In this document: piece after piece, positions 6,541 through 55,068 of the stretch
Layout of the letters: every line of letters begins with the position of its first letter
Position numbering within the stretch: position 1 is the first letter of the stretch
From: Deltaproteobacteria bacterium CG_4_9_14_3_um_filter_63_12
GTDB lineage: Bacteria; Myxococcota_A; Bradymonadia; UBA4248; UM-FILTER-63-12
Reading direction: 5' to 3'
Length of the DNA: 64,000 bases
NCBI GenBank assembly: GCA_002789955.1
Contig: PFUG01000420.1
Coordinates: forward strand, 11,569-75,568
The notes under the pieces: model-generated
Database searches by the model: none
Seen by the model: the letters and a program-made list of their open reading frames with translations, nothing else
Told to the model about the DNA's origin: nothing
Made by a program: the position numbers and the translations under genes

Positions 6541-6613
6541 AGCCAGCGACCGGAGTTGAACCGGTGACCTGCGCATTACGAATGCGCTGCTCTACCAACT
6601 GAGCTACGCTGGC
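6541..6613 (-). tRNA. tRNA-Thr (anticodon CGT)
   Basis: The reverse complement reads GCCAGCG-TA-GCTC-AGTTGGTA-GAGC-A-GCGCA-TTCGTAA-TGCGC-AGGTC-ACCGG-TTCAACT-CCGGT-CGCTGGC-T. This is a canonical cloverleaf with a 7-bp acceptor stem, GG in the D-loop, TTC in the T-loop, anticodon CGT, and no encoded CCA. Confidence 0.85.
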
Positions 6614-7123
6614 ACCCCAAAAGGCAGGACCGTCTAACATGAGTTTTCGGACGGGGTCAATACTTTCTCGTCTGTGCCTTCTGCGCGAAGCCTCCCTTTT
6701 TCGCAGGCGGGACAGACCCCTGCTCGGAGCAATGTTCAGGTCTCTCAATAATTTCGGAGAGCTGGACCGCAAGCTGCGAACCGCATCGACGTTTCTAGAG
6801 CGGATTCTAGACCGGAAGCGATACGGGTCACGTTGAAATGAGCGTTCAGCTTGCTCGCATGTGACGCGAGCTTCTCCTTCGAGTTCGTCATGGCTCAAGC
6901 CGAGCCGCTCGGCGAATGCTGCGCAACAAAAAGGCCAGCCGGGAAGGAGTATGAGGTCAGTAGAGGTTAATGCTCTCGTCGTTCGCACGAGAGCGCTTCA
7001 CCACGAGGCGTCCACCCTGCGGACGTCCTGATGCAGTCGACCACGAGCGGATCACACTGGCGCGCAGAGCCTTCTGTGTACGCTGGCGGGCGGTCGCGTG
7101 AGCGGTCGCTGGAGAGTCGCGCC

Positions 7124-9079: not shown

Positions 9080-11182
9080 TTGCGGACGGCAGTAGCACAA
9101 CCTGGGTTGGCAACGGTCTTGAGAGTCCCTATCCAAAGCGCTCCGCGCCACGGGCGTCAGCTTCCGCCATCGTTGTGGGTGTTGCTGCTCATCGGTTTGG
9201 TTTGGCAGGCACACGCTACAGCTCAGGAGGGTGCAGATGCGCCGCCGCTGTCCGAGCTGCTCTGGCTCGACCACTCAGCCTCCCTGCTCGGCACTGGGGT
9301 CAACGCCGTGGTCGTGGCCCCGGATGATCCCTTGCGACTCTACGCGGCCGGTCGTGGGTATGTCGCCGGAAGTAAAGACGGCGGCGCCACCTGGGGACCG
9401 CTGCTGTTGCTCGCCGGAAACGAGTTTCAGGACGAAGACCAGACCCTCATCGAGGTCCATGAAGACGACCTACAGACCTTTGAGGACACTGACGCGGAGG
9501 CCCAGTTCGAGTCGTTGAGGGAAGAGTATTTCGACGAATTCACACAGCGATACGGCGAGACTCTCGCCACTGAGCTCATGCTCGACATCGAGGACGACCT
9601 CAGAGATGAAGCGTACGCCGACTTGATTGACCTAGCCTCCGAGGCGGGCAACGAGCGCGACTATTTGGACCGGCTCAATCGCTTGCTGACCGCCGGGTTT
9701 TCCGAAGAGGAGGCGACCCGCTTGGCCTCGGATCCGCTGGCCGTCTGGTCGTTGGTGATCGAGGTCGACGCCCCCAAGATCGTGTACGCTGCGACTGGTC
9801 GCGGGCTCTATCGCTCGATCGACCGAGGGACGAGGTGGGAACGTCTGATCTCCGGGCTCGGACCAGATGGCGATGGGGTCTTGTCCGTGCGCGCCGCCGA
9901 CCAAGGCAAAACCATCCTCGCCGGCACAACCCGTGGGCTCCTCGTCAGCACCGACGCGGGACGCACCTGGAGCCGTTCTCTGGGAGCTGTCTCGAGCGAG
10001 CCCATTCGGGAGGTCATTCGAGTCGACGCCCGTGGCCGCTTCTTCGCCATGGGCTCACGCGGGATATTCAGGACCGACGACACGGGGACGACCTGGACAA
10101 CGCTGGTCCCGACGGGCTTCGATGTGGCGGATGCCACAGCAATGCTGTCGCCAGCGGGCTGGGGTGACTCACTCTTTGTCACGACCCCCAAAGGCGTCCA
10201 CCGCAGCGATGATGGCGGAGGGACTTGGGCAAAGCTCAGCGGGTCTGGGCTGGCCTCTTCGGGATTGCTGCAGGTGCTGCCAGTCGATGGCGTGGACAAG
10301 CTCATCGCCATCACCGAAGGCGACGTCTACGCCAGCACGGACGGTGGCGACAACTGGTTCACCGCGAGCGCCGGCTTAGTGGGCCAGGACCTGCGCTGGA
10401 TCGCCGTTGGCCCGACCGGCGAGCTGTGGCTCGGCTCTTCTTCCGGCCTGCTCAAGGGTCTTGCGGGTGAGGCTGCGGCGATTCAAGCAGAGAGTATCCG
10501 TCGCCTGAGAGAGATCTGGGCCGAAGAGCCCAGCATCGCACAGGTTGTTGGAGCCGGGTTGATCTATCACGGGCTCGAGGACACCCCTGTGGACGGTTGG
10601 CACGAGGCATTGTTCTTCTCGAAATTTGCCCCACAAGGCTGGGTCACGTTGGACTATCGACAACGACGCTACGACAACGAATACGTCACCTGGGTTTTTC
10701 CGAATCGGGACTCTGACCGGACCCTGGACACGATCTCGCGTCAACAGCGGCGAACGAACTACCAGAATCCGCAGACCAACGACGAGTTGCTGGGCCCACC
10801 CTCCAATCTGGAGTGGCAAGTGTTCGCGACCTGGGATCTCGGCCGAATGCTTTACGATCCGGCGTCGACCACCATCGAGAATGTCGGAGCCCAGCTCCGC
10901 AAGACCCGTCAAAAACTGGTCGGACGCATCGTTCGCCTGCTCATCAAGCGACGGGCACTGCAGCTGCGCGTCGTTTCGACGGGCGAGCTGGCCGTCGAAC
11001 GACACATCGAGTTTCAACTCGAGCTCGAGGAGATGACCGCTCTGTTGGATGGCCTCACGGGGGGCTATTACTCGAAGGCGGCGTCGAGCTACCGTGCCGA
11101 GGATCTACTTTTTAACGACGACGTGGAAGAGACCGCCAGGGAGAGCCTGGCGAGCATCGACACCGAAGGAGAGAACGAATGA
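9080..11182 (+). CDS. Secreted BNR/Asp-box repeat protein (Ycf48-like beta-propeller) with an acidic helical C-terminal region
   Basis: Signal-like N-terminus (LWVLLLIGLVWQAHATAQEG). Repeated S-x-D-x-G-x-T-W motifs (SKDGGATWGPL, SIDRGTRWERL, STDAGRTWSRS, TDDTGTTWTTL, SDDGGGTWAKL, STDGGDNWFTA). The start codon is uncertain (TTG at 9080). Confidence 0.5.
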   Translation: MRTAVAQPGLATVLRVPIQSAPRHGRQLPPSLWVLLLIGLVWQAHATAQEGADAPPLSELLWLDHSASLLGTGVNAVVVAPDDPLRLYAAGRGYVAGSKDGGATWGPLLLLAGNEFQDEDQTLIEVHEDDLQTFEDTDAEAQFESLREEYFDEFTQRYGETLATELMLDIEDDLRDEAYADLIDLASEAGNERDYLDRLNRLLTAGFSEEEATRLASDPLAVWSLVIEVDAPKIVYAATGRGLYRSIDRGTRWERLISGLGPDGDGVLSVRAADQGKTILAGTTRGLLVSTDAGRTWSRSLGAVSSEPIREVIRVDARGRFFAMGSRGIFRTDDTGTTWTTLVPTGFDVADATAMLSPAGWGDSLFVTTPKGVHRSDDGGGTWAKLSGSGLASSGLLQVLPVDGVDKLIAITEGDVYASTDGGDNWFTASAGLVGQDLRWIAVGPTGELWLGSSSGLLKGLAGEAAAIQAESIRRLREIWAEEPSIAQVVGAGLIYHGLEDTPVDGWHEALFFSKFAPQGWVTLDYRQRRYDNEYVTWVFPNRDSDRTLDTISRQQRRTNYQNPQTNDELLGPPSNLEWQVFATWDLGRMLYDPASTTIENVGAQLRKTRQKLVGRIVRLLIKRRALQLRVVSTGELAVERHIEFQLELEEMTALLDGLTGGYYSKAASSYRAEDLLFNDDVEETARESLASIDTEGENE

Positions 11183-11832
11183 GAAACCAACGAGGACGTT
11201 GGGTCTGGATGGCAATGGCCGCCCTTGCGCTCCTGTTCCCGAGTGTTGCGTTTGCCCAGAGCGCGGATCAGATCCTGGCGAGCTTCGATGACGAACCGAC
11301 CGTTCTCGAAGTTCAGGCTGCGGCATTGACGTATTCGGGGCTTGATCCGGATCGCGTCGAGGGCTGGAACACCCGAGCGAACCTCGCCAATCTCCTTCCG
11401 GAGCGCGCCTCGTATACGATCCGCTACCAGGACCAAGATCGGACCATGGAGCAGCTCACGGATGACTACAACGAGGCCGGCACCACGCTGGGAGCGCAGG
11501 ATCGTCGGGAGCTGCGTACGCAGACCGAGACCCGCCACGAAGGCCGCGTGGAGTGGGACTTCTCGAAGCTGATCTTCAACCCCGAGGTGCTCCGTGTCGC
11601 CCGTGAAGTCGGCAGCCAAACCAAGCTGCGTGAGGACGTGCTGACGACCGTCACGAAGATCTTTTACGAGCGTCGTCGCGCTCAGATCGACATCATCATG
11701 AATCCGCCGTCGGACGCGGCGGACAAGCTGCGCAAAGAACTGCGGGTCCAGGAGCTGACCGCCGACATCGACGCGATGACGGGATCGTGGTTCAGCAGCG
11801 AGCTGAAGGCTGCTGGAAAGAACCCGTACTGA
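11179..11832 (+). CDS. Secreted hypothetical protein
   Basis: Overlaps the upstream stop by 4 nt (ATGA). Signal peptide MRNQRGRWVWMAMAALALLFPSVAFAQ. A charged helical body with no recognisable domain. Confidence 0.4.
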   Translation: MRNQRGRWVWMAMAALALLFPSVAFAQSADQILASFDDEPTVLEVQAAALTYSGLDPDRVEGWNTRANLANLLPERASYTIRYQDQDRTMEQLTDDYNEAGTTLGAQDRRELRTQTETRHEGRVEWDFSKLIFNPEVLRVAREVGSQTKLREDVLTTVTKIFYERRRAQIDIIMNPPSDAADKLRKELRVQELTADIDAMTGSWFSSELKAAGKNPY

Positions 11833-11845
11833 TTTTCGTATGCAG

Positions 11846-11894
11846 AAAAAAGAAAGCGCCAACCCCTCGTAAGTGGTTGGCGCTTTCTTTTTCT
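11846..11894 (+). terminator. Rho-independent terminator
   Basis: AAAGAAAGCGCCAACC-cctcgtaagt-GGTTGGCGCTTTCTTT followed by ttc. A 16-bp stem, 14 nt after the stop at 11832. Confidence 0.75.
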
Positions 11895-12036
11895 TGGTGA
11901 CGGCAACTCCCTTGGGCCTAGAAGAAGAGGCTTCTAAGACCAAGGGAGCCGTCGCTCCCCCGGTGGGTCCCTCCCTGAGGAGTTGACTCTTACATGTGCA
12001 ACGAGCGAGCCAAACGCCAGACCGCTTGTGAACACC

Positions 12037-12060
12037 GGCATTGCTAATCATAGCAACGCC
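12037..12060. promoter_or_regulatory. Inverted repeat, candidate operator upstream of the sigma-54 activator gene
   Basis: ggcaTTGCTAatcaTAGCAAcgcc. Half-sites TTGCTA / TAGCAA form a perfect inverted repeat with a 4-bp spacer. It is the only strong palindrome in the 350-bp leader of the 12185 gene, about 130 bp upstream of its start. Confidence 0.3.
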
Positions 12061-12184
12061 TTGCCGCTCTGGGCTGGAAAAGGCAGCGAGTCGCAGCTAA
12101 GCCTGTTGCGGCGAGTCGACTATCGTGATACGCCAAGCACATATCCGAACAGGAGACCCCACACTTCGGTGAACTTTAGACGCC

Positions 12185-14344
12185 ATGCCCACTGAACAGA
12201 AAGACGCCGAGCTTGTCTCTCACCTGCGACACGACCTGATCAAGCATTTGGACATCCCCAAAGCACACTCGCGCATGACACGATCGGGGTGGGATGTCCT
12301 GCTGCGTAGGCTGTACGCGGGAGAGACCGGCGTCGTTGCATTGGGAGCCCAATGGACAAGGCGCCTAGAGGACGCCTGGGGCGGGCGGCCTCTGCTCGAC
12401 GCGGCGGTCAAGGACCTCAGCCACGCGGTCGCTCAGCTCAACGCCATTCGCGAAGACAACGAGCGGCGAGCGCGCGAAGTGAGCCCGGCAGGTGCCGAGC
12501 TCGTCGAGATGCTCAACTTGTTGGTCGCCACGGTACGCTCCATCGAGACGGTGACTGAGGGCGTGGAGGAGGTCGACGCGCTGGATTGGCTCCTTGGAGA
12601 CAACCTACCTGCCCCTGAAGCACACGAGTTCGCTGCCGTCACAGAGTCGCCTCTGCGCCCCGAGGGGGGGCGCTACCGAGTCCTTGTGGTCGATGACCGC
12701 CTCCAGTCCATAGAGCGCTTCCACTCATTGGAGCATCTGAGGGATCGCTTCGAGTGGGTGACCCTGTGCGAGCTCGACGGCCCTTGTTGGACCTGCGAGC
12801 ACCAATCCGAATGCCCCATGAAGAGGGCAAGAACTTTCCGCGAATTCGAGGGCGCGCTGCGCAGGGCACAGTCCAGAGGGACGCCCATCGACGTCATTCT
12901 GATGGACGTGCGCTTCGATGACATCGCTGCTGGCGAGCTGCTGCCTACGCCGCCAGGCTTCGAGCCCGACACGGAGAGCACGGCGCGCGGTCTGCAAGGA
13001 CCGTTGATGGTCCGTGAACTCAACGAGCGAAATGACCTGCCACAACCGCCTGTGGTGCTGATGACCGGCCGCGACACGCTGCCGCCAGGCGCCGAGAGGC
13101 TGCTCGAAGGCCTCGACGGTCTCCACTTCGTCGACGATGAGGCGAGCATCGAGGCGCTCACTGCGCGCCTCGACATCGTCGCCCGCCGGGGCAGCCGCCC
13201 AATCAGCGAAGGCGCTTTCTTCTGGGGGCGTAGCCCGGTGATGCTCTCGGTTCGTGAGCAGATTGAACTCTTGGCCATGGGACCCCGTCCGGTCCTGCTG
13301 ACTGGACCTTCAGGCTCTGGAAAGAGCTTCTTGGTCGAAGAGGTCTTGCTCCCCGTGAGCAAGCGAACGCACCTCGTCACTATGGACCTCAGCGCCATGC
13401 CGGAGACGCTCGTCGAGAGCGAGCTCTTTGGCCATGTGCGCGGCGCGTTCTCAGGGGCTGTAGCTGAACGCAAGGGACTCGCCGAGGAGGCCGACGGCGG
13501 CATCCTGTTCATCGACGAAATCGGGCACTTGTCCGCCGAGAATCAGCGCAAACTCCTGCTCTTCCTCCAAGACAAGCAGGTGCGACGAGTGGGCGCGAGC
13601 CATCACACGCGCCATGCAGTCGACGTCAAAGTGGTCGTAGCGACGCACCTCGATCTCCAGGAGGAGGTTGAGGCTGGGAGGTTCCGCTTCGATTTGTTCA
13701 TGCGGCTGCGACCGGCGACACAGGTGCGCCTCCCATCGCTGGCTGAGCGGCCGGAGGACCTCGACGGCATGATGTCCCATATCGTGCGTCGTCTCGTCGA
13801 CGGTCCTGAGCTGCGTCCGTATGTGCTCGACGTCTCGAGAGCCCGCCGCATGGAGCCCAAGGTCGAGCTCATTATCGGCAGCCAACGCTCCACCTCGAAA
13901 GGCCTCTCGGTCAGGCTCCCCACCGCGACCGCGGTGGCCTTGAAAAACCACTCGTGGCCAGGCAATACCCGCGAGCTCGAGAGTGTGCTGGACACGTTGC
14001 TGTTGAGGGCGTTCGCGGACTCGCGCCGAGTCGAGGCCCGCAGTCACATCATCGAAGTGGATCACTACTTGACCTTGAAGCTGCTGGGGGTCGGGCGTCA
14101 CAAGAGCACGGCGGGACAACCCATGCTCAACCTGGCGGTCGAACCCTCTGGAGATCTCAAGCGCATGCGCAATCGCCTCGAGCGGGCCTACCTAATCGAG
14201 GCCTTCCGAGCCGCCGATGGGGACATGGAGAGAATGACGGAGATGGTGTTGGGTTCACCGACCGTCGATGACCGACACCGGCTAACGGTCCGTATGAATC
14301 AACTCGGCCTAAAGGTCACTGAGCTGAAGCACACCACGCCTTGA
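12185..14344 (+). CDS. Sigma-54-dependent transcriptional activator (bEBP) with a long atypical N-terminal region and a degenerate receiver domain
   Basis: AAA+ sigma-54 interaction domain: Walker A LLTGPSGSGKSF, ESELFGH, GAFSGA (variant of GAFTGA), Walker B GGILFIDEIGHL, and SWPGNTRELESVL. Upstream of it sits a receiver-like block YRVLVVDD...IDVILMDVRFDD...VVLMTGRD with a roughly 60-aa insertion. No canonical C-terminal Fis-type HTH was recognised. Confidence 0.75.
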   Translation: MPTEQKDAELVSHLRHDLIKHLDIPKAHSRMTRSGWDVLLRRLYAGETGVVALGAQWTRRLEDAWGGRPLLDAAVKDLSHAVAQLNAIREDNERRAREVSPAGAELVEMLNLLVATVRSIETVTEGVEEVDALDWLLGDNLPAPEAHEFAAVTESPLRPEGGRYRVLVVDDRLQSIERFHSLEHLRDRFEWVTLCELDGPCWTCEHQSECPMKRARTFREFEGALRRAQSRGTPIDVILMDVRFDDIAAGELLPTPPGFEPDTESTARGLQGPLMVRELNERNDLPQPPVVLMTGRDTLPPGAERLLEGLDGLHFVDDEASIEALTARLDIVARRGSRPISEGAFFWGRSPVMLSVREQIELLAMGPRPVLLTGPSGSGKSFLVEEVLLPVSKRTHLVTMDLSAMPETLVESELFGHVRGAFSGAVAERKGLAEEADGGILFIDEIGHLSAENQRKLLLFLQDKQVRRVGASHHTRHAVDVKVVVATHLDLQEEVEAGRFRFDLFMRLRPATQVRLPSLAERPEDLDGMMSHIVRRLVDGPELRPYVLDVSRARRMEPKVELIIGSQRSTSKGLSVRLPTATAVALKNHSWPGNTRELESVLDTLLLRAFADSRRVEARSHIIEVDHYLTLKLLGVGRHKSTAGQPMLNLAVEPSGDLKRMRNRLERAYLIEAFRAADGDMERMTEMVLGSPTVDDRHRLTVRMNQLGLKVTELKHTTP

Positions 14345-15720
14345 CGATGAACGAGATTGTCACTCCTCCATACCTCGCCGACAGGTATCGATTCGAACGA
14401 AAGCTCGGCGCTGGCGGCCAAGGCACGACCTACTTGGCAGAGCGCCTAAAGGACGGGGTAAAGGTCGCGGTCAAAACGTTGCATGTGGCGGCGCTCGAGA
14501 ACTGGAAAGCACTGGAGCTCTTCGAGCGAGAAGCCAAGCTGCTCTCCGCCGTATCTCTGGCAGGTGTCCCCAAAGTCTTCGAGTACGGCTCCGAGGACGA
14601 TGCGGGGAGCCCCCGCTTCTATCTGGTTCAGGAGTACCTCGAGGGCGAGAGTGCGGGGGAGCTGCTCGCACGTGGGTATCGCTTCACCGAGGGTGAAGCC
14701 ATCAACTTGGCTTGGCAGGTCCTGGGCATCTTGAGTGAGCTGCACGCCCTTTCGCCACCCGTCATCCATCGCGACGTGAAGCCCTCGAACATCATCGTCA
14801 AACCCGACCACGTCTGCGCTCTGGTCGACTTTGGCTCGATCACCGGAGTGTTGAAGCAGTCGGGCGGCTCAACGGTCTCGGGGACCTTTGGATACATGGC
14901 ACCCGAACAGCTCTCAGGCCGAGCGACCGCGGCCAGCGACGTCTATTCCGTCGGCGCAACGATGGCGCATTTGCTCTCTGGCATCCCGCCGACGGAGATG
15001 GAGAGCCACCTGTTCCGCCTCGAATTCGCTCCCCACTGCAACATCAGTGGGACCCTCGAGCGCCTCTTGGAGCGGATGTTGGATCCGGAGGAAGAACACC
15101 GGTTCGCCTCGGCGCGAGACGCGCAGTTGGCGCTCGCCGCGCTGGAGAACGACATCTCGCGTGCGAGCGAGGTCCTCGCGCCAGCGAAAGACCTCAAAGA
15201 GCTCACGGTCGTCGGGCAGTCTGGCTCGCTGACGATTTTTCACGCGTTGGGCCGGGCGCCTAGAAAAGTGCCGAAAGAGTATGCGAGGCTGTTGACGCGC
15301 CGGCTCTTGCTCTATGGGCTCGGTGGGGGGCTCGCCGCCTTCGTTGCCTTGGTTGGCATGAGCCTGTTCATCTCCTTGGGCCTGGGTCCGGTCGAGTTGG
15401 TCTCGATCGTGGCGCTGCCATTTATCCTTAGCTATGGGCTGATGCGCAGCCGACGGCGACTGAAACGGGTCATTGGAGGCGGAAGGAAAGCGCTTGGTCA
15501 CGTCAGTGAGGTCCGCCAGACCCACGAGGGGCCCCGCCTCGCCTACGAATTCAAGGTTGCGGGTAAGACCATCACCGGCAGTGTGAGGCTCGGAGAGGCC
15601 GATGTTTGTTTGGCCCATGGGGACGAGCTCGGGGTCCTCTACGATGAGGAGAAGCCCGAAGACAATCTGCCCTATCCCCTTCCCCCCTTAGCTTTGGTCA
15701 AAGCCCTCGAGGAGGAGTGA
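14341..15720 (+). CDS. Hanks-type Ser/Thr protein kinase with C-terminal transmembrane segments
   Basis: GAGGQGTTYLAE (Gly loop), VAVK, HRDVKPSNII (catalytic loop), DFGS, GTFGYMAPEQ (activation segment), then two hydrophobic helices and a short C-terminal domain. The TTG start overlaps the bEBP stop (TTGA). Confidence 0.8.
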   Translation: MTMNEIVTPPYLADRYRFERKLGAGGQGTTYLAERLKDGVKVAVKTLHVAALENWKALELFEREAKLLSAVSLAGVPKVFEYGSEDDAGSPRFYLVQEYLEGESAGELLARGYRFTEGEAINLAWQVLGILSELHALSPPVIHRDVKPSNIIVKPDHVCALVDFGSITGVLKQSGGSTVSGTFGYMAPEQLSGRATAASDVYSVGATMAHLLSGIPPTEMESHLFRLEFAPHCNISGTLERLLERMLDPEEEHRFASARDAQLALAALENDISRASEVLAPAKDLKELTVVGQSGSLTIFHALGRAPRKVPKEYARLLTRRLLLYGLGGGLAAFVALVGMSLFISLGLGPVELVSIVALPFILSYGLMRSRRRLKRVIGGGRKALGHVSEVRQTHEGPRLAYEFKVAGKTITGSVRLGEADVCLAHGDELGVLYDEEKPEDNLPYPLPPLALVKALEEE

Positions 15721-15730
15721 GACCGTGCCT

Positions 15731-17359
15731 TCACTCGAGTGAAAGGTAGACCCACACAGCGCCTTCCCGTTCTTCCATCTCAACGATCGGGGTGGAGAAG
15801 CCGAACGGCACCGGAACCGCAAGGTGAATCAGGCGCTGAACGACCGCGGTGACAAGGTCTTCGACCAGCGTGTCGCCTTGAATCGCCGTGCCGACCTTCT
15901 CGAGCACCCCGTAATTGGCGCTCTCCACGTCCACATTGGCTTTGGCCACCTCGAAGCTCAGGAGACCGTCTCGAACGGAGGGCAGTGTGCCGATGTCGAG
16001 GCCCGAGACGATATCCGCGACCTCGATGAGGAGTCCTTCACTGTCGCCATAGAGCTCGAGTCGCACCCGAGGTAGGCCCCACCGGAGCTCGCCGGCCTCG
16101 ATAGACTGCAGCGAGAGGGCGCTCAAGGGCTGCAGCCGCAGGCGCCCCTCAGAAGCGAAGGAGAACTGGTCCATCAGGCCTAACCGAGGGGCGAGCGCGT
16201 TGAGGGTCGTGAGGCGGGTCTGGGCGCCGATGGGCAGATCGACGCAGAAGTAGCCAGAGGCCGTCGCCGTTTCCAACATCTGGTTGAAAAACCCTCGGTC
16301 GATTTGGATGAGCACGTCATAAGGCTCACCCATGGCGGTGAGCCTGGGAGCATCCGTTGCGCTCAGCGGCGTTGGAATCGCTGTGAAGAGCCCGTCGACG
16401 CTCGCCATACAATCGGCCGTTGGTCCTTTGACGGCGACGTCGAGAGCGAGCTTCAGCCCACTCTCGGCTCCAATCTCGAAGCCGCTTCCAGTCCAAGGGG
16501 GAAGCTCTGCAACTTGAGTCGCGAGCTGAACGGTTTGCGGCTCGAAGAATCCCTTTTGCAGGGGTAAGAGCAGGAAGCCGCCCTGTGGCAGTGCGAGTTC
16601 GTTGACGATCAAGGCCTGGAGCGCAGGGACGAACGTCTCTCGAGCCTGCTTGTCGAGGGCGTTCTCAAGGCGGGCATCCACGAACGCCCAGTCCACGCCA
16701 TCGAGATCGAAGGTGCAGGTCTCCCCTGCAGGCATGCCGTATGTGGTCGGGCTCTCCGGTGAGAACGTGCGCAGCTCGGTAGCCCAAGAGGGCAAAGTCC
16801 CGCTCATCGGAACCATGTCGAACTTCAGCTCGCGGGAAGCCAGCCCCAGGTCGACGCGGCAGATGTGGAAGTTTCCTTGTTGCGAAATGCGGACGACGGT
16901 ACGGACCGATTGTGCGCTGTATCGAATAGACACGTCGAGTGTCCCGTCCTCGGGCAAGAGCGCCAATGATTCTAGGGGGAAAGCGACATCAAGCGGACCA
17001 ATGACCAGTGTGGTGCCGTCTTCCAGGAGCTCCTCGATTGCGCCGCCTTCCCAAACCAGTCCGAAGCGCGCTCGGGATTGCGCAGGGAGTGCCATCGAGA
17101 TGGTTTCGAAGTACGAGGGCATGAGGTGGAAAGCCACCACGGACCCCGCTTCCCCCTCGAGACGAGCTCCGCTCGTAATTGGCCGGATTTCCGCGCGCTC
17201 ACACCCAGCCACGAACAGCCCCAGCGCCAAGACCAGCGCGGTGCACGAAAAGACCCCGCGGCACGCCGTCGGCCTGCTTCGAGCCAGCCCGGTGCGAAGC
17301 AGCGTGCGAGAGCCGCTCGAGTTGGACGTGTGGGTCGGGGTTGGGAAGGTGCTCTTCAT
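15731..17359 (-). CDS. Hypothetical lipoprotein
   Basis: N-terminal ...ALVLALGLFVAGC lipobox. No recognisable domain. Convergent with the kinase gene, 10 nt apart. Confidence 0.4.
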   Translation of the reverse strand: MKSTFPTPTHTSNSSGSRTLLRTGLARSRPTACRGVFSCTALVLALGLFVAGCERAEIRPITSGARLEGEAGSVVAFHLMPSYFETISMALPAQSRARFGLVWEGGAIEELLEDGTTLVIGPLDVAFPLESLALLPEDGTLDVSIRYSAQSVRTVVRISQQGNFHICRVDLGLASRELKFDMVPMSGTLPSWATELRTFSPESPTTYGMPAGETCTFDLDGVDWAFVDARLENALDKQARETFVPALQALIVNELALPQGGFLLLPLQKGFFEPQTVQLATQVAELPPWTGSGFEIGAESGLKLALDVAVKGPTADCMASVDGLFTAIPTPLSATDAPRLTAMGEPYDVLIQIDRGFFNQMLETATASGYFCVDLPIGAQTRLTTLNALAPRLGLMDQFSFASEGRLRLQPLSALSLQSIEAGELRWGLPRVRLELYGDSEGLLIEVADIVSGLDIGTLPSVRDGLLSFEVAKANVDVESANYGVLEKVGTAIQGDTLVEDLVTAVVQRLIHLAVPVPFGFSTPIVEMEEREGAVWVYLSLE

Positions 17360-17399
17360 ACTCTATGGGGCCCAAGATCGTCGGCGTCTTTTTGGGGGG

Positions 17400-18650
17400 T
17401 CAATTCCGGCTGATGTGATCCAGTCGAACCAAGGTGTGCTCGCCGCCGATCTCCTGGGTGACGACGTGTCTCGTCCCATCGGACCCGATCGCCAAGGCGG
17501 TTGCAATGACCCCAGGTTCGATGTCCAAGCTGCTGGTCTTCCAACCCGTTGGCGATCGGGTGGAGAGCAGAAGCCCCAATGTGGCGCCGTTGATGTGGCT
17601 GATCACGGCGCTGCCATCGGTGTCGAAAGCGATCGACGGGAACTGCCCAACGATGATCTTGCGCTCCCCCGTCTCGTCCCTTCGTCGCCCGTCGTCGATG
17701 AGCTCGATGAGGGGCACTCCATCGAGGCTGCGTGCGATCTTGAGTGTCCCCTCGCCACCGTCGAAGAAGGCCACGACAGGATCCCCTTTCGCATCTATGG
17801 CAATGTCGTTGTAGTGACCCACACGGGTGCCGGGGTTCTGGCTGGGAAGCGGGTCGCTGGCGCCGTCGATGACCCTGAGCACCCAGGAGCCTCCGCTCTT
17901 TCGAGCGAGTCGCAGCGTGCCGCAGTCGGCATCGTAGTAAGAGACGACGGGGGTTGCTCCCGAGACGACGAGGTGACTTTGGTAGCCAACCCCACGATTG
18001 ACGCGGCTCCTCTGTTCCTCGGGACAGGCCTCTTCCACGGGGATCTGGGAGGGTGGGTCGGCGCCTGTGTCTACGAAATCGAACCGCCAGATCTCTTGGC
18101 TGCGCAGCGCATAGCGCAAGACTTGATACGTTCGGTCTCGATAGGAGACGTGGGGTACGTCCTCCGAGTCGATGGTGAGGTCGAGGTCAACCCCAACATC
18201 TGCGGTGTCGTCGATGACCTCGGTTCGCCACTGCCCGCCTTCGTCCATGTAGGCGAACATCAGCCGAGCCAGTGACGAGTCACGGTAGGCGATGGCGGGC
18301 CGGCCATCGCTGTAGAGGTCGATGGCCGAGTAGAGTCCGACGTCGCGGTTCGAGTCGACGGTTTGGTAGTTCAGACGCCCATCCACGCGGTCCCAAACTC
18401 CGAGCACCAGGTCGCGGCCCTCGGTGTCGTAGGCCGAGACGTAGACCACGCCGTCCGCGTTCGTGACGATCGCGGGCCTCGATGAGATTGAGCGCGCCTT
18501 CACTCGGTTGGGCGCGCGGCATTGCTCCGAGGCGTCGTCGCAGCTCATTCCCCAAGGGCAGGGATCTTCCTTGCAGGTGCTCTGCGACGGATCGTTGGGG
18601 CAGCCCGTGAGGGTGGCTGCGCAGAGCGTGATGACGGCGACGAAAGCCAT
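17400..18650 (-). CDS. Lipoprotein with about 50-aa beta-propeller-like repeats (paralog of the C-terminal part of the 18806 gene)
   Basis: Internal ATG gives MAFVAVITLCAATLTGC (lipobox), then a small Cys-rich module (CKEDPCPWGMSCDDASEQC). Repeated units follow of the form hh.hAhD..G.PhhSYxD....xLxhA (VGLYSAIDLYSDGRPAIAYRDSSLARLMFAY; HYNDIAIDAKGDPVVAFFDGGEGTLKIAR). Confidence 0.45.
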   Translation of the reverse strand: MAFVAVITLCAATLTGCPNDPSQSTCKEDPCPWGMSCDDASEQCRAPNRVKARSISSRPAIVTNADGVVYVSAYDTEGRDLVLGVWDRVDGRLNYQTVDSNRDVGLYSAIDLYSDGRPAIAYRDSSLARLMFAYMDEGGQWRTEVIDDTADVGVDLDLTIDSEDVPHVSYRDRTYQVLRYALRSQEIWRFDFVDTGADPPSQIPVEEACPEEQRSRVNRGVGYQSHLVVSGATPVVSYYDADCGTLRLARKSGGSWVLRVIDGASDPLPSQNPGTRVGHYNDIAIDAKGDPVVAFFDGGEGTLKIARSLDGVPLIELIDDGRRRDETGERKIIVGQFPSIAFDTDGSAVISHINGATLGLLLSTRSPTGWKTSSLDIEPGVIATALAIGSDGTRHVVTQEIGGEHTLVRLDHISRN

Positions 18651-18805
18651 GAGGTGGAGCGCGCGACGCCCAAATTGGCACGTGCTCTGCCCTGTCCCGA
18701 GCTCTCGCCGAATAGCAGAGAGTCGCTTCGGGCCAGAGGGTTGCGCGCGCGAGACGCGCAACAGCTCTGGACGATGGCTGAGCCGGGCAGTGTGCATTGA
18801 GGCAA

Positions 18806-21800
18806 TCAGGGAATCGGAGTCACTTGGAAGATGGGCGAGAGGTTCGTCGGTGAGGCCTGTTGGTCGATGACGAAGTTGATCAGGAACGCCGTATCTCCGA
18901 CGATCACATGGTCTGCGTAGAAGCCGTAGGCTCCTGTGTAGCTGGTACCGCGCCCCTCGCCGGAGAGCACGGTCTGGACGAAGACGCCCGACGCGTCTTT
19001 CTGGGCGAGGACGAGCTGCAAGGTCGAAGAATCCTGGTAGGCGATCGTCGGCAACCCTTGATAGAGCAGGATTGAGGAGTCGTCCCCGATGAAGTTGATG
19101 GAAGGCCCAAAGGCATCGATTCGCGTCCCATCGTCCACGACCTCCTCGGAGCTCCCGTCGAGCGCCAAGTAACGAAGATCTTTGTGGCTCCAGTCCACGA
19201 AGCTGAGGTGTTCGACGTCACTGCCGTCGATCGCGATGGAGGGCCACAGCCCACTGTTTCCGTCGGCGCCAGACAAGACGACAGGAGCGTCGAACGCGCC
19301 GCCCGCGCTCTGTTTCGCGAAGCGGAGGTCGCCATTGGCGCTGTCGTAGTAGGCCAACGCCACGCGGCCGTCGCTGTAGCGCGCCTGTGCGCTGTGCAGA
19401 CCGACGCCGGGCTGCCAATCGACGAGGGCTGCGGGATCCACCACCACTGCGCAGGTCCCGGCGCCGAAGCAGCGCTCTTCGCTGGCGCAGCCAGACCCGC
19501 ACACGCTGTCCGCGACGGGTGCCTCACATTGGCTGTTGTCGAGTCGGCAGAAGGACCCTGTGGCGCATGGGGTGGCGCAAGGTCCAGTGACGTTGAGACG
19601 GTCTACTGTGACGACGGCGAAATCACTGCCGGAGGCTGGCGTCGCTGTCGACGCTTGAGCGTAGCGCAGCTCGCTGTAGACCAGGCCGTCGGCGGGATCG
19701 AGGACCTCTGCGACCATGTACGAGATCCCAGGAGCCCCAGTGGAATCGAGGCTCAGTGAGGTCCACAGGCCGCTGCGACCGGCGGCGTCCACAGTGGTGA
19801 AGGTCCACGAGTAGCTGCCCCCAGTGGCGACGCCGCGCGCATACATCAGGTCTTCGTTGTCGACGTCTTGGTAGGAGATGTGGAGCGTCCCGTCGGCGGC
19901 GACAGCGAGGTCGGTGTAGCGCCCTCTGTCCGCTCCCGGGGCTTTGATGCCGCCGCGAGGCCCGCTCGTCGACCCTTCGACGGGGGCACCGATAGGCAAC
20001 CCATCGATGAAGCTCCACGTCATCTGGCCGCTGGCGTCTTTGAGACCGAGCATGAGATCGCCGTAGGTGTCGTTGTAGGCGGAGGCCGCAACGACTCCAC
20101 CAACGTTCGCGCCGATGTTGGTGTACTGACCGTATCGTCCCATGCGCAACGGCGGCAGCTCGACACAGGTGCAGACGGGGTCGGTGATGTCGCAGGTCGT
20201 CGGGTCACCGCCGCCTGGGCTCTGCATCTCGATTCGGAACCCCGGCTCGCAGGTCAGCTCGCCGCACTGGTCAGGGATAGGCAGACAGCTGTTCTCCGCG
20301 TTGCAACAGAATTGCCCAGTGGGGCATCCGTCGGAGCAGGGAACGCCGCACGAGCAGATCCCTTCGAAGCAGAGGGCCATCTCGCCCGCACCGCAAGAGA
20401 GCGAGCAGTCCGAGGATTGCTCGCATGTCGCGGTGCGGCACTCTTTGAACCCATCGCCGTTCGTATCCTCGCACAGCTGCCCAGGCTGACAGTCTGCAGG
20501 GCCGTCACAGGCGGAGTCGGGGACGCACTGCTCGTCGATGCAGGTGTTGCCCTCCGAACAGCCTCCACAGGGAATGAACTCGCTCTTCGGCGAATCCTCA
20601 CAGGAGAACAGAACCACACCGCTGCACACCAGGGCGGCGAAGAGAGACCACCGACGGCGGCGAACGGCGAGCAAGCCCAGCGCGACGAGCAGCAGGGAGA
20701 GTCCGGTCGGCATCGACGAGGAGCGGCGCGTCGTGCTGCAAGAGCAGGCGCCATCGGTGTCGCTGGCGGCCTCCACGGCTCCCTCGACGGTCAGAGACTG
20801 CTTGAGCGTCGCGACGTTCCCGTTGCCATCGCGCACCTGCGCCTCGAGCCGCACGCGCGAGCCGCGGTGCGCCGAGAGCTCGAATAGGTTAGAACCTGTC
20901 CAGCTCGACCACTCGCCGCCGTTGACGCGGATGCGGTAGCTCAGCTCGGTGGCGGCGCTCGTCTGGTCGTAGGCCATCACGCGGATGGCCGCATCGTCGC
21001 GTTGGATGGCCTCGATGATGGGCGCACGCCAATCGATGGTCACGTCGAGGCTCTCCGGGCTGGGATCCAGGGTGTGGTAGTCGCCGATGACGCGGGAGCG
21101 CACCTGGAGCGTGTGGGGTCCGGGGAGTAGAAGGGCGGGATGTCGCAACGGCAGCCGCTCGACCGGAGAGAAGATCGACCAGAGACTGTCGTCGACGCGA
21201 ACCGAGTACTCGAGCGCCTGGCCAGGCAGGGGTGAGCGGCCCGAGAGCAGCAGGTTGACCGTCGGCACCAAGCCGCTGGGGCTGCCTGCGTGGGCCCAGT
21301 CGATGTTGCCGTTGGCGTCCAAGAAGTGGCTGGCGGGCATCTCGATGGAGTCGACCATCGCTTGCGTCTCGGCGGAACCGGCGAGTCCGCCTGGGGGCAC
21401 ATAGGCCAGGCCGGCGAAGAGGCCGATCATCGTGTTGTTTTCGATGCCCGTCATCTCCTCCACGTTGAGCTGGAACCCCATGAGGTCCGGCAGCTGGATG
21501 GGGTTGGAGATGCTGCCGGCGAGCTGGGGCAGGAATCCGGAGATGAGCGAAGGCAACAAACCAGCGATCAACGCCGGGTCCTCGGAGATCAGCTCAGAGT
21601 TGCGGACCTCGACGTTTTGCAAGGCGTTGCTCAGGTCTCCCAAAACCGGGATCAGCTCGTTCGACGGGGTCAAGGTGAGCCCAAGGGGAAGGTGAATGTC
21701 GCTGTTGATGGTCAGGATCCGCGCGTAGCGGTCGAAGATGAACGCGTAGAGGTCGATGTCGATGTTGTTGAGCTCGATGACCAGCAATGGCTCGGTGAGA

Positions 21801-23137: not shown

Positions 23138-23430
23138 TATCGACCTCACCAAGCAACAGCTTGGCATTCTACGAGGCAGCACGACGCCGCCGTTTGGTGT
23201 ACAGGACAAAAGGCCTTCGAACCACCGAAAGCCGCGTCGTCACCCCTTCTCGAGCTGAGTCCAGCGCAGTATCCGAGGCTGGGGATCGCGAGTCAAGCAG
23301 ACCCAGAATCCCCGCTGGGTTGCAGGACTCCAAGCCAGCCGCTTCGGGGCTTGTCCGGCGTCGGTCCGAAGCCACGCCACCCTCGCCACCGCCGCTCGCG
23401 TGGGAGATTTGGGCGACGCGCTCGTGGCTG

Positions 23431-55037: not shown

Positions 55038-55068
55038 GTCTTCTCCCCAATCGAGTTCGGTGGGCGCC

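What the first reader, a model, noticed from the sequence alone, without database searches (positions are those of the whole stretch)
12185..15720. Sigma-54 activator translationally coupled to a Hanks-type Ser/Thr kinase
The bEBP (12185-14344) and the membrane Ser/Thr kinase (14341-15720) overlap by 4 nt (TTGA). The bEBP has a complete AAA+ sigma-54-interaction module, but its roughly 330-aa N-terminal region is unusual. It has an unassignable first 150 aa, then a receiver-like fold with the acceptor-Asp context (VILMDVRF) split by an insertion of about 60 aa. I cannot recognise a canonical C-terminal DNA-binding HTH, and about 120 extra C-terminal residues follow the SWPGNTRELE box. The kinase has two TM helices after the catalytic domain. 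This looks like a dedicated Ser/Thr-kinase-controlled sigma-54 enhancer-binding protein, the Pkn/MrpC-like logic of myxobacteria in a different domain arrangement. Its target promoter is not in view.
Basis: partly seen in the sequence, partly recalled or inferred. Interest (0 to 1): 0.65.

Follow-up and report, generated by a model that had tools for sequence, protein, structure and literature searches.

The report
Sigma-54 activator, kinase and divergent sRNA
An unusual sigma-54 transcription activator from an uncultured myxobacterium is co-transcribed with a membrane-anchored Ser/Thr kinase, and its likely target, a small structured RNA behind a sigma-54-type promoter, lies just upstream on the opposite strand, much like the Vibrio LuxO/Qrr quorum-sensing switch but built from different parts.

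Summary
Both genes are real and tightly coupled: a 4-nt overlap with the TTG start, or a 2-nt gap with the in-frame ATG that a public gene call uses. The activator belongs to a small family found only in Myxococcota. It has a family-private N-terminal helical bundle. It also has a true CheY-fold receiver carrying two insertions, one of them a nearly invariant CX5CX2CX5C motif, with Asp in place of the catalytic Lys. The rest is an AAA+ core with a GAFSGA loop and a divergent but recognisable Fis-type HTH.

The kinase is adjacent in only 4 of 6 close lineages and in none of about 17 distant ones, so it is a clade-specific accessory and not a defining partner.

The main new result is a sigma-54-type -24/-12 motif on the opposite strand, 173 nt upstream of the activator start (11998-12012). 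It keeps that distance in four independent lineages. In the window it is followed by a roughly 85-150-nt RNA whose 24-bp helix has 13 compensatory pairs, with a U-run terminator in three lineages. No Rfam family matches it.

Best reading: a LuxO/Qrr1-like module of sRNA, activator and kinase. Phosphorylation of the activator, metal binding by the cysteines and expression of the RNA are all untested.

The parts
11998..12012 (-). Sigma-54-type -24/-12 promoter motif, TGGCTC-N5-TTGC, divergent from the activator gene. Its -24 end lies 173 nt from the activator ATG.
   Evidence: one mismatch to TGGCAC-N5-TTGC; the strict motif TGGCNN-N5-TTGC lies on the same strand at 173/174/173/160 nt in the window, L001, L009 and L027, and a loose variant lies at 193 nt in L005. 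Background is 0.018 per 450 nt. No locus of the 40-45% clade has it.
11892..11991 (-). Candidate small RNA, with a predicted start near 11986. It consists of a 5' hairpin, an invariant core GACCCACCGGGGGAGC (11954-11969) and a long 3' hairpin (11899-11953).
   Evidence: conserved in the window, L001, L005 and L009. (RNAalifold: 31 pairs, 13 compensatory). (96% paired versus 40-62% when partners are slid; 0/500 shuffles reach the observed values). (minus strand 96% paired versus plus strand 85.5%). (covariance model: one copy per locus). (no Rfam family).
11847..11892 (.). Strong hairpin (21-nt arms) with an A-run on one side and a T-run on the other. It is the likely terminator of the + strand gene 11179-11832, and in the window also the likely end of the minus-strand RNA.
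   Evidence: (I1, 95% complementary) and the sequence. In L001, L005 and L009 the U-run instead directly follows the long hairpin.
12013..12184 (.). Intergenic control region between the divergent promoter and the activator start. Enhancer sites are expected here. The window has a dyad, TTGCTA-N4-TAGCAA, at 12041-12056.
   Evidence: The dyad is not conserved in other lineages, so the enhancer is unresolved.
12185..14344 (+). Sigma-54 enhancer-binding protein, 719 aa.
12185..12592 (+). N-terminal helical bundle (aa 1-136) with the invariant motif HDLIKHLDIP, followed by a disordered linker (aa ~128-160).
   Evidence: block-mean pLDDT mostly >90. (only generic helical-bundle matches). (no Hpt or DHp relative). 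(no homologues outside the family).
12674..13195 (+). Atypical receiver domain (aa 164-337). D170, D171, D241 and T294 are invariant, and D317 occupies the position of the conserved Lys. It has two ~25-aa insertions.
12767..12814 (+). Cys motif C195-x5-C201-x2-C204-x5-C210, inside the beta2-alpha2 insertion of the receiver.
   Evidence: (present in 44 of 47 family members and in P0048/P0049). (also present in ~550-aa activators, e.g. from Sandaracinaceae). The same spacing ligates Fe-S clusters in RseC and Wbl proteins.
13226..13711 (+). AAA+ sigma-54 interaction domain (aa 348-509). Its sigma-54 contact loop reads GAFSGA (aa 420-425, nt 13442-13459). The lid that follows carries a beta-hairpin insertion (aa 557-578).
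14156..14335 (+). Divergent Fis-type helix-turn-helix (aa 658-717), with an extended turn and the conserved recognition helix H-x-L/I-x-V-R-M-N-Q-L-G-L.
   Evidence: hhalign 82%, E 1e-5. (four helices, block-mean pLDDT 76-86). (an RtcR/PspF-type profile extends to aa 688).
14341..15720 (+). Hanks-type Ser/Thr kinase, 459 aa from TTG 14341 or 457 aa from ATG 14347.
14386..15108 (+). Kinase catalytic domain (aa 16-256) with GAGGQG, VAVK, HRDVK, DFG and APE motifs.
15301..15447 (+). Hydrophobic hairpin (aa 321-369) forming two transmembrane helices, so both flanking domains face the cytoplasm.
   Evidence: hydropathy. The topology itself is inferred.
15448..15717 (+). C-terminal ~90-aa domain resembling DUF3592.
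   Evidence: E 0.037, weak. PF12158 is on record for the full-length homologues P0158, P0181 and P0212. The domain is 25-47% identical among orthologues.

Best explanation
The locus is a three-part regulatory module.

1. Output. A sigma-54-type promoter on the minus strand (11998-12012) drives a small structured RNA of about 85-150 nt (roughly 11986 down to 11900, or down to 11845).

2. Activator. A divergently transcribed, atypical sigma-54 enhancer-binding protein binds the ~170-bp intergenic region through its divergent Fis-type HTH. Its AAA+ ring remodels sigma-54 RNA polymerase at that promoter.

3. Input. A membrane-anchored Hanks kinase is translated in tight coupling with the activator. 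It most likely sets the activator's activity by Ser/Thr phosphorylation of the N-terminal regulatory region (the bundle, the linker or the receiver).

The receiver lacks the catalytic Lys and carries four cysteines with Fe-S-type spacing. It probably supplies a second input, redox or metal, or simply a structural metal site. This logic is that of Vibrio qrr1-luxO-luxU, with a Ser/Thr kinase in the place of the Hpt protein.

Shown here: the gene structures, the domain folds, the family conservation, the conservation of the promoter motif's position, the RNA covariation and its strand bias, and the adjacency statistics.

Inferred only: that the activator acts on this promoter, that the kinase phosphorylates the activator, that the cysteines bind a metal, and that the RNA is made and acts in trans.
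For: - Domains and folds.
- Promoter: a strict -24/-12 motif at 173/174/173/160 nt from the ATG in four independent lineages, against a background of 0.018 per 450 nt. The spacer and the N5 bases are not conserved, while the TGGC and TTGC elements are.
- RNA: a 24-bp helix with 13 compensatory pairs; 96% of cells paired versus 40-62% for slid controls; 0 of 500 shuffles reach the observed values. Read as RNA, the minus strand pairs at 96% (15 G-U) and the plus strand at 85.5%. U-runs follow the helix in 3 of 4 lineages. There is one copy per locus.
- The genes downstream on the minus strand differ between lineages, or are absent, so the conserved unit is the promoter plus the RNA.
- Kinase linkage: present in 4 of 6 close lineages, with 1-5-nt spacing and no other conserved synteny.
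- All three lineages in which both sides of the activator gene can be seen carry both the RNA and the kinase.
- Precedents: qrr1 lies 151 bp upstream of luxO in the opposite orientation (PMC8043402); pxr lies next to nla19 with a sigma-54 promoter (PMC5568312).
Against: - There are no expression data, and the RNA rests on only four lineages.
- The promoter deviates from the TGGCAC consensus (TGGCTC here; GGGTAC...TTGA in L005). The motif on its own is not enriched in the window (4 matches versus 2.3 expected).
- No enhancer site shared across lineages was found.
- rpoN was not seen in the window.
- The window copy has no U-run directly after the long hairpin.
- The kinase is unlinked or absent next to most family members, and the activator has no FHA domain.
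- L027 keeps the promoter but not the RNA, and L026 has neither.
- The GAFSGA loop is non-canonical.
Confidence: 0.5

Rival explanations
1. The kinase is the dedicated, defining input of this activator family, a Ser/Thr-kinase-controlled sigma-54 activator whose target lies elsewhere in the genome.
For: The coupling is tight. Orthologous pairs recur in L001, L005 and L041. The receiver lacks the catalytic Lys, so classical His-Asp control is doubtful. No histidine kinase is encoded in the window.
Against: The kinase is adjacent in 0 of about 17 lineages at 40-45% identity and is missing in 2 of 6 close lineages. In the sample holding P0004 a kinase orthologue sits on another contig. There is no FHA domain. 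The Asp pocket and the Cys motif are conserved whether or not the kinase is present. A conserved candidate target promoter lies 173 nt upstream.
Confidence: 0.2
2. The activator is an orphan atypical response regulator controlled only through its own N-terminal module. Control would come from Asp-241 phosphorylation by an unlinked histidine kinase or a small phosphodonor, or from a redox or metal change at the four cysteines. The kinase would be an operon passenger or a co-regulated output, not an input.
For: D170, D171, D241 and T294 are invariant across the family. The Cys motif is present in 44 of 47 members and in a second architecture that lacks the N-terminal domain. The spacing matches Fe-S ligands in RseC and Wbl proteins. 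Fe-S and metal-sensing activators exist: OrpR and PexR. Most family members have no adjacent kinase.
Against: An invariant Asp sits at the Lys position, which argues against normal phosphoryl chemistry. Three family members have lost the cysteines. The kinase pairing has been kept across deep divergence with 1-5-nt spacing. Cys geometry could not be measured, because no model coordinates were available.
Confidence: 0.3
3. The conserved upstream element is not a trans-acting sRNA. It could be a cis-acting leader or attenuator for whatever lies downstream on the minus strand, a plus-strand 5' UTR structure of the activator mRNA, or merely a conserved terminator.
For: The 3' part of the core (GGGAGC) is complementary to the 5' base of the long hairpin (GCTCCC), and this pairing co-varies in L009 (GGAACC/GGTTCC). 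That looks like an alternative, antiterminator-like pairing. Protein-coding genes do follow on the minus strand in L001 (a kinase), L005 (UppS) and L027. The plus strand also folds well, with z = -3.1.
Against: In the window nothing is encoded downstream on the minus strand: that stretch is antisense to a real secreted-protein gene, 11179-11832. The downstream genes are unrelated between lineages. G-U asymmetry and the U-runs favour the minus strand. On the plus strand the helix is preceded by an A-run, not followed by a U-run. The invariant 16-mer between covarying helices is typical of an sRNA seed.
Confidence: 0.2
4. The kinase is an anti-phage defence kinase (PD-T4-6 or MADS-like), and its position next to the activator is incidental.
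For: Hits in the defence-system library (PADLOC) to PD-T4-6 and mad6 profiles, E about 1e-50, and an NCBIfam MAD6 hit.
Against: The hits cover only the generic kinase domain, and the NCBIfam MAD6 hit is far below its curated cut-off (100.7 versus 460 bits). No defence genes are nearby. The pairing with the activator is conserved.
Confidence: 0.02

Closest known systems
Vibrio qrr1-luxO-luxU (LuxO/Qrr quorum-sensing switch)
   Same: A sigma-54 activator gene with a sigma-54-dependent small RNA gene immediately upstream in the opposite orientation: 151 bp in V. harveyi (PMC8043402), and 173 nt from promoter motif to ATG here. From my own knowledge, a phospho-signalling partner gene (luxU) lies directly downstream of the activator.
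   Different: LuxO has a canonical receiver that is phosphorylated through the Hpt protein LuxU. Here the receiver lacks the Lys and carries four cysteines, an extra private N-terminal domain is present, and the downstream partner is a Hanks Ser/Thr kinase. The RNA matches no Rfam family, Qrr included.
Myxococcus xanthus Pxr sRNA next to nla19
   Same: Same phylum. It is an sRNA of about 108 nt with several stem-loops, apparently transcribed from a sigma-54 promoter and located beside an NtrC-like activator gene (PMC5568312).
   Different: pxr lies downstream of nla19, not upstream and divergent. From my own knowledge, Nla19 is a conventional response regulator. No kinase of this type is involved. 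No sequence or structure match was detected. Whether Rfam 15 contains a Pxr model was not checked.
FHA-domain sigma-54 activators of Myxococcus (own knowledge: Jelsbak, Givskov and Kaiser 2005)
   Same: Sigma-54 activators thought to be linked to Ser/Thr kinase signalling in Myxococcota.
   Different: That link is made by an N-terminal FHA phosphothreonine-binding domain. No FHA domain is present here.
Metal and Fe-S-sensing sigma-54 activators: OrpR, PexR, NorR
   Same: The regulatory domain of a sigma-54 activator uses Cys, His or Asp-bound metal to sense redox state, H2O2 or NO (PMC8359166, PMC12754779).
   Different: Their sensor sites lie in PAS or GAF domains. Here the cysteines sit in an insertion within a receiver fold, and metal binding is untested.
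CX5CX2CX5C / CxnCx2Cx5C Fe-S motifs of RseC and Wbl proteins
   Same: Identical Cys spacing. The RseC N-terminal domain reconstitutes an O2-sensitive cluster with a [4Fe-4S]-like spectrum, and the Wbl cysteines ligate a [4Fe-4S] cluster (PMC11729352, PMC7363131).
   Different: There is no detectable homology outside the motif (no Pfam RseC_MucC or Whib hit), and the fold context is different.
NtrC-family response regulators (NtrC1, NtrC4, HupR, NtrX)
   Different: There is an extra N-terminal domain and two receiver insertions. Lys is replaced by Asp. The contact loop is GAFSGA instead of GAFTGA. The HTH falls below Pfam detection. No cognate histidine kinase is in view.

Membership tests
Bacterial enhancer-binding protein (sigma-54 activator, Pfam PF00158) | AAA+ sigma-54 interaction domain scoring above the curated threshold | tested here: met
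   163.4 bits against a cut-off of 20.2, E 4.9e-48, aa 348-509.
Bacterial enhancer-binding protein (sigma-54 activator, Pfam PF00158) | GAFTGA sigma-54 contact loop | tested here: inconclusive
   The loop reads GAFSGA here, and GAFSGA, GAYSGA or GSFSGA in all 47 family members. It is a conservative Thr-to-Ser variant whose function is untested.
Bacterial enhancer-binding protein (sigma-54 activator, Pfam PF00158) | C-terminal Fis-type HTH (HTH_8) | tested here: inconclusive
   No Pfam HTH_8 hit at E<=1. However, hhalign against HTH_8-bearing tails gives 82% probability and E 1e-5, and AF2 predicts the helices.
Response-regulator receiver (Pfam PF00072) | CheY-like alpha/beta fold | tested here: met
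Response-regulator receiver (Pfam PF00072) | Acidic pocket (DD), phospho-acceptor Asp and conserved Thr/Ser | tested here: met
   D170, D171, D241 and T294 are invariant, and their register is confirmed against PleD.
Response-regulator receiver (Pfam PF00072) | Conserved Lys after beta5 | tested here: not met
   An invariant Asp (D317, in 'FVDD') occupies the position. The register was counted on from the aligned LEGL/LESG segment.
Response-regulator receiver (Pfam PF00072) | Pfam model score | tested here: not met
   No PF00072 hit at E<=1 for the window protein. Only some short second-tier relatives carry the annotation.
FHA-domain sigma-54 activators (kinase-coupled, Myxococcus) | N-terminal FHA domain | tested here: not met
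   No FHA or Yop-YscD_cpl hit at E<=1. The N-terminal domain is all-helical.
Hanks-type Ser/Thr protein kinase | Pkinase domain with Gly-loop, VAIK Lys, HRD, DFG and APE | tested here: met
   127.3 bits against a cut-off of 31.7. All motifs are present.
PknB/PASTA sensor kinases | Extracellular PASTA repeats | tested here: not met
   130 bits against a cut-off of 450, covering only the kinase domain. The TM hairpin leaves no extracellular domain.
LuxO/Qrr-type circuit (works-like comparison) | Sigma-54 promoter plus terminator-ended sRNA divergent from the activator gene | tested here: met
   This was tested at the sequence level only; expression cannot be tested here.
LuxO/Qrr-type circuit (works-like comparison) | Homology of the RNA to Qrr, and of the partner protein to LuxU | tested here: not met
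   No Rfam match, and the partner is a Pkinase. The locus is therefore analogous to the LuxO/Qrr circuit, not a member of it.
Fe-S cluster sensor proteins (Wbl/RseC-type motif) | Cx2Cx5C-containing four-Cys motif | tested here: met
   C195-x5-C201-x2-C204-x5-C210, compared with the literature.
Fe-S cluster sensor proteins (Wbl/RseC-type motif) | Actual cluster or metal binding, and clustering of the four thiols in space | not testable with these tools
   Model coordinates are not exposed. Biochemistry is needed.

The most novel reading that the evidence does not exclude
A LuxO/Qrr-like sigma-54/sRNA switch in uncultured Myxococcota in which the activator is not a two-component response regulator. 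Its Lys-less receiver would hold an Fe-S (or other redox-active metal) centre on a CX5CX2CX5C insertion, and its activity would be set jointly by that centre and by a co-translated membrane Hanks kinase. The output would be a previously undescribed sRNA family. If so, the receiver fold has been repurposed from His-Asp phosphotransfer to combined redox and Ser/Thr-phosphorylation sensing.
Probability: 0.2. Interest if true: 0.8.

Novelty: new variant of a known kind. Interest (0 to 1): 0.62.

Why it matters
If the reading is right, it gives four things:
1. A complete, compact signalling unit (input kinase, activator, output RNA) that can be tested directly, in a phylum where dozens of sigma-54 activators and about a hundred Ser/Thr kinases per genome remain mostly unconnected.
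2. A route from Ser/Thr kinases to sigma-54 activators that does not use an FHA domain.
3. A receiver domain that has lost its catalytic Lys and gained an Fe-S-type Cys motif. No such sensor design turned up in the literature I searched or among the solved structures I compared.
4. A new sigma-54-dependent sRNA family. This adds to evidence, with Qrr and Pxr, that placing an sRNA gene beside its activator gene is a recurrent design.

Relatives of the activator family are also abundant in animal-gut and rumen metagenomes, where Myxococcota are little studied.

Tried and rejected
- Conserved regulon from synteny. No window gene within 1-32 kb recurs beside relatives other than the activator and the kinase. 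The genes that follow the kinase in L001, L005 and L041 are unrelated to each other.
- Shared enhancer dyad in the intergenic region. None was found across five lineages.
- Extra copies of the RNA. None was found in the window or in 30 other loci.
- Other sigma-54 promoters in the window. The motif count is at chance level. The site at 6923-6937 lies about 310 nt upstream of a tRNA-Thr gene and I judged it a chance match.
- Identity with PexR. Rejected, because PexR senses through a GAF domain.
- Defence-system reading. The defence-library (PADLOC) hits are domain-level only.
- Measuring Cys-Cys distances in the AF2 model.
- Metagenome scan for more close-clade loci. It returned only 12 loci, just one of them in the close clade and already known.
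- The homology search with the Cys-receiver profile returned mostly fragments.

Full report
**Observation.** The junction reads ...CC TTG ACG ATG.... TTG 14341 overlaps the TGA stop (14342-14344) by 4 nt, but an in-frame ATG at 14347 lies 2 nt after the stop, and the public gene call for this protein (P0121, 457 aa) uses that ATG. Either way the genes are tightly coupled. The orthologous pairs have gaps of 5, 1 and 2 nt. Upstream, a 21-nt-arm hairpin (11847-11892) ends the preceding gene. Downstream, the next gene is convergent. The two genes therefore form a bicistronic unit.

**The activator: domain scans and family.** Pfam finds Sigma54_activat (aa 348-509, E 4.9e-48) and a weak AAA lid. 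It finds no Response_reg, HTH_8 or FHA even at E<=1. NCBIfam hits are all far below the equivalog cut-offs; the best is RtcR at 214 bits against a cut-off of 650. A homology search found a distinct full-length family, P0001-P0047, at 39-64% identity and about 98% coverage, and a shorter ~549-aa tier. All 18 genome hits are MAGs of Myxococcota, Myxococcales or Bradymonadales. Several come from ruminant or other animal guts and carry loose bin labels.

**The activator: N-terminal region.** The family alignment and an AF2 model of aa 1-345 (mean pLDDT 84.5) give this layout:
- A helical bundle at aa 1-136 with the invariant motif HDLIKHLDIP.
- A disordered linker.
- An alpha/beta domain at aa 164-337.

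**The activator: receiver details.** D170, D171, D241 and T294 are invariant. Alignment to PleD sets the register: LQG 270-272 corresponds to the canonical MDG, and an invariant Asp (D317) falls at the position of the conserved Lys. There are two insertions of about 25 aa, not one of 60:
- aa 193-217 in the beta2-alpha2 loop carries C195-x5-C201-x2-C204-x5-C210.
- aa 245-269 lies in the beta3-alpha3 loop, just after D241.

The Cys motif is present in 44 of 47 family members. It also occurs in ~550-aa activators that lack the bundle, for example from Sandaracinaceae. The same spacing ligates Fe-S clusters in RseC and in Wbl proteins (PMC11729352, PMC7363131). For this protein that is a lead, not a test.

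**The activator: C-terminal region.** The sigma-54 contact loop is GAFSGA, GAYSGA or GSFSGA throughout the family. The C-terminal tail aligns in register with HTH_8-bearing tails of canonical activators (hhalign 82%, E 1e-5), with a 4-5-residue insertion in the turn. The full-length AF2 model shows the expected helices at 658-717, with block-mean pLDDT of 76-86. An HTH is therefore present but divergent. The tail after the WPGNTREL box is 121 aa, against a canonical median of 104, so it is not really 'extra'.

**The kinase.** All Hanks catalytic motifs are present. A ~48-residue hydrophobic hairpin (aa 321-369) is followed by a ~90-aa domain with a weak DUF3592 match. The inferred topology places both the kinase domain and the C-terminal domain in the cytoplasm, with no extracellular sensor. 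This ~450-aa layout is common in several phyla.

**Is the pairing conserved?** Among close lineages (activator 60-68% identical):
- The kinase is adjacent and co-oriented in the window, in P0003 (L001/L002/L008/L028), in P0006 (L005) and in L041. The L041 kinase is the window kinase's best database relative at 52% identity.
- It is absent next to P0002, the closest activator, and next to P0004.
- A kinase orthologue, P0123 (45% identical), occurs in the same sample as P0004, at similar assembly coverage but on another contig. That suggests the pair was split while the kinase was kept.
- Two other orthologue-level kinases are unlinked.
- None of about 17 lineages in the 40-45% clade has an adjacent kinase.
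- No other neighbour is conserved.

The pairing is therefore a real, clade-restricted operon. That is decent evidence for a functional link. It does not define the activator family.

**The unexpected part: an upstream RNA element.** Aligning the regions upstream of the activator in the window and L001 revealed a conserved ~75-nt segment. Its long hairpin keeps its pairing while its sequence changes. The invariant 16-mer GCTCCCCCGGTGGGTC occurs once in the window (11954-11969). It also occurs upstream of the activator in L001, L008, L028 and L005, with a 3-mismatch version in L009.

Read on the minus strand, four lineages share the same order:
1. A -24/-12-type motif.
2. A non-conserved spacer of 14-15 nt.
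3. A short 5' hairpin.
4. The core GACCCACCGGGGGAGC.
5. A long hairpin.
6. A U-run in L001, L005 and L009. In the window, a second hairpin with a U-run takes this place.

**The promoter motif.** The strict motif TGGCNN-N5-TTGC lies at 173, 174, 173 and 160 nt from the activator ATG in the window, L001, L009 and L027. L005 has GGGTAC-N5-TTGA at 193 nt. The background rate is 45 hits in 1.108 Mb, or 0.018 per 450 nt. No locus of the 40-45% clade has the motif, and neither does L026. Taking the window as the discovery case, three further lineages with a hit inside a ~21-nt positional window has a chance probability of about 1e-8 (my calculation from the numbers). The motif on its own is not enriched in the window. 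Its significance comes from the conserved position.

**The RNA structure.**
- RNAalifold gives 31 pairs, 13 of them compensatory.
- Counting shows 96% of cells paired, against 40-62% when partners are slid. Fourteen pairs carry changes on both sides, against 7.1 +/- 1.6 in shuffles, and 0 of 500 shuffles reach the observed values. With four sequences these figures are indicative, not probabilities.
- Read as RNA, the minus strand pairs at 96% (15 G-U pairs) and the plus strand at 85.5% (2 G-U pairs).
- A covariance model finds one copy per locus and none elsewhere in the window or in 30 other loci.
- Rfam has no match, either in a permissive scan or in the whole-window scan at gathering thresholds.
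- Downstream on the minus strand, the window has nothing (the stretch is antisense to a real secreted-protein gene), L001 has a kinase gene, L005 has UppS and L027 has an unrelated gene. The conserved unit is therefore the promoter plus the RNA.

[quoted passage not shown] It also recalls M. xanthus pxr beside nla19 (PMC5568312). I therefore propose that the activator drives the divergent sigma-54 promoter to make a small RNA, and that the co-translated kinase is an input. The Lys-less, Cys-bearing receiver would be a second sensor, or simply a structural metal site. The conservation and the folds are shown here. Phosphorylation of the activator, metal binding, enhancer binding and expression of the RNA are inferred.

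**Weak points.**
- The RNA is supported by only four lineages.
- No shared enhancer site was found.
- rpoN is not in the window.
- The promoter is off-consensus.
- L027 keeps the promoter without the RNA.
- The 5' domain of the RNA has two competing folds.
- The core's 3' part can also pair with the 5' base of the long hairpin, and L009 shows covariation there. This hints at an alternative, antiterminator-like structure that I cannot resolve.

**Novelty and score.** Sigma-54 activators with adjacent sigma-54-dependent sRNAs are known. So are metal-sensing activators, such as OrpR and PexR. From my own knowledge, so are kinase-linked FHA activators. What is new is the combination:
- a family-private N-terminal domain;
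- a receiver with a CX5CX2CX5C insertion and Asp in place of Lys;
- a Hanks kinase partner without an FHA domain;
- an sRNA absent from Rfam.

I rate this as a new variant of a known kind, with interest 0.62.

Noticed in passing
window 11954-11959 with 11943-11948 (minus-strand RNA); L009 ~250-262: The 3' end of the invariant core (GGGAGC) is complementary to the 5' base of the long hairpin (GCUCCC), which also pairs with the hairpin's 3' base (GGGAGU). In L009 all three segments have changed together (GGAACC / GGUUCC / GGGAAC). This suggests two mutually exclusive pairings, like a terminator/antiterminator switch.
   Followed up: partly
L027 ~1100-1116 (minus strand) and downstream to 804: The P0004 lineage has an unlinked kinase. 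It keeps a strict TGGCCT-N5-TTGC motif 160 nt from the activator start, but the sequence after it does not match the RNA model. About 300 nt further on the same strand is an unrelated 268-aa gene. The promoter may have been re-used there.
   Followed up: partly
P0048, P0049, P0250, P0254, P0256: A second activator architecture of ~550 aa (e.g. from Sandaracinaceae) has the same Cys-bearing receiver ('GPCWTC') fused directly to the AAA+ domain, with no N-terminal bundle. A further ~549-aa group (P0050-P0060) lacks the cysteines. Most of that group keep 'LDLRFD', the post-Asp insertion and the 'RFNxLGL' HTH.
   Followed up: partly
L003, L004, L017, L035 (P0046 lineage): The activator family has abundant members in animal-gut and rumen metagenomes. 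P0046 stands for 156 sequences on 54 contigs. Several MAGs holding the family are labelled 'Proteobacteria' or even 'Bacteroidaceae', which are probably loose or contaminated bin labels for gut Myxococcota.
   Followed up: no
L001 6519-7541 (minus strand): In the P0003 lineage a second, unrelated 340-aa Pkinase gene lies on the minus strand about 150 nt beyond the RNA element's U-run. The activator gene there is flanked by kinase genes on both sides.
   Followed up: no
window 6541-6613 (-), 6923-6937 (-): A tRNA-Thr (CGU) gene with a strong terminator. A second TGGCCT-N5-TTGC motif lies about 310 nt upstream of it, in a 530-nt intergenic gap. I judged it a chance match.
   Followed up: partly
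window 53826-55133 (-), 55072-56547 (-), 23434-24834 (-): A cluster of cyclic-nucleotide signalling genes: a PP2C phosphatase fused to a cNMP-binding domain, next to an adenylate/guanylate cyclase, and elsewhere a TPR protein with two cNMP-binding domains. The PP2C is the only Ser/Thr phosphatase in the window, but it lies about 38 kb from the kinase.
   Followed up: no
window 60940-63639 (-): A 900-aa protein with four tandem DsbA/Thioredoxin_4 domains (E 1e-116). This is an unusually repetitive thiol-disulfide oxidoreductase.
   Followed up: no
window 15731-23209 (-): Three consecutive large genes (542, 465 and 1467 aa), convergent on the kinase gene, have no Pfam hit at E<=0.01. They appear to be secreted or lipoproteins with Cys-rich stretches, and none recurs beside relatives of the activator.
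   Followed up: no
window 12530-12532 (aa 116): The database cluster representative P0001 (listed as 100% identical) differs from the window protein at one residue: Arg in P0001, Thr in the window (LLVARVRS versus LLVATVRS). The window is therefore a near-identical strain, not the identical record.
   Followed up: no
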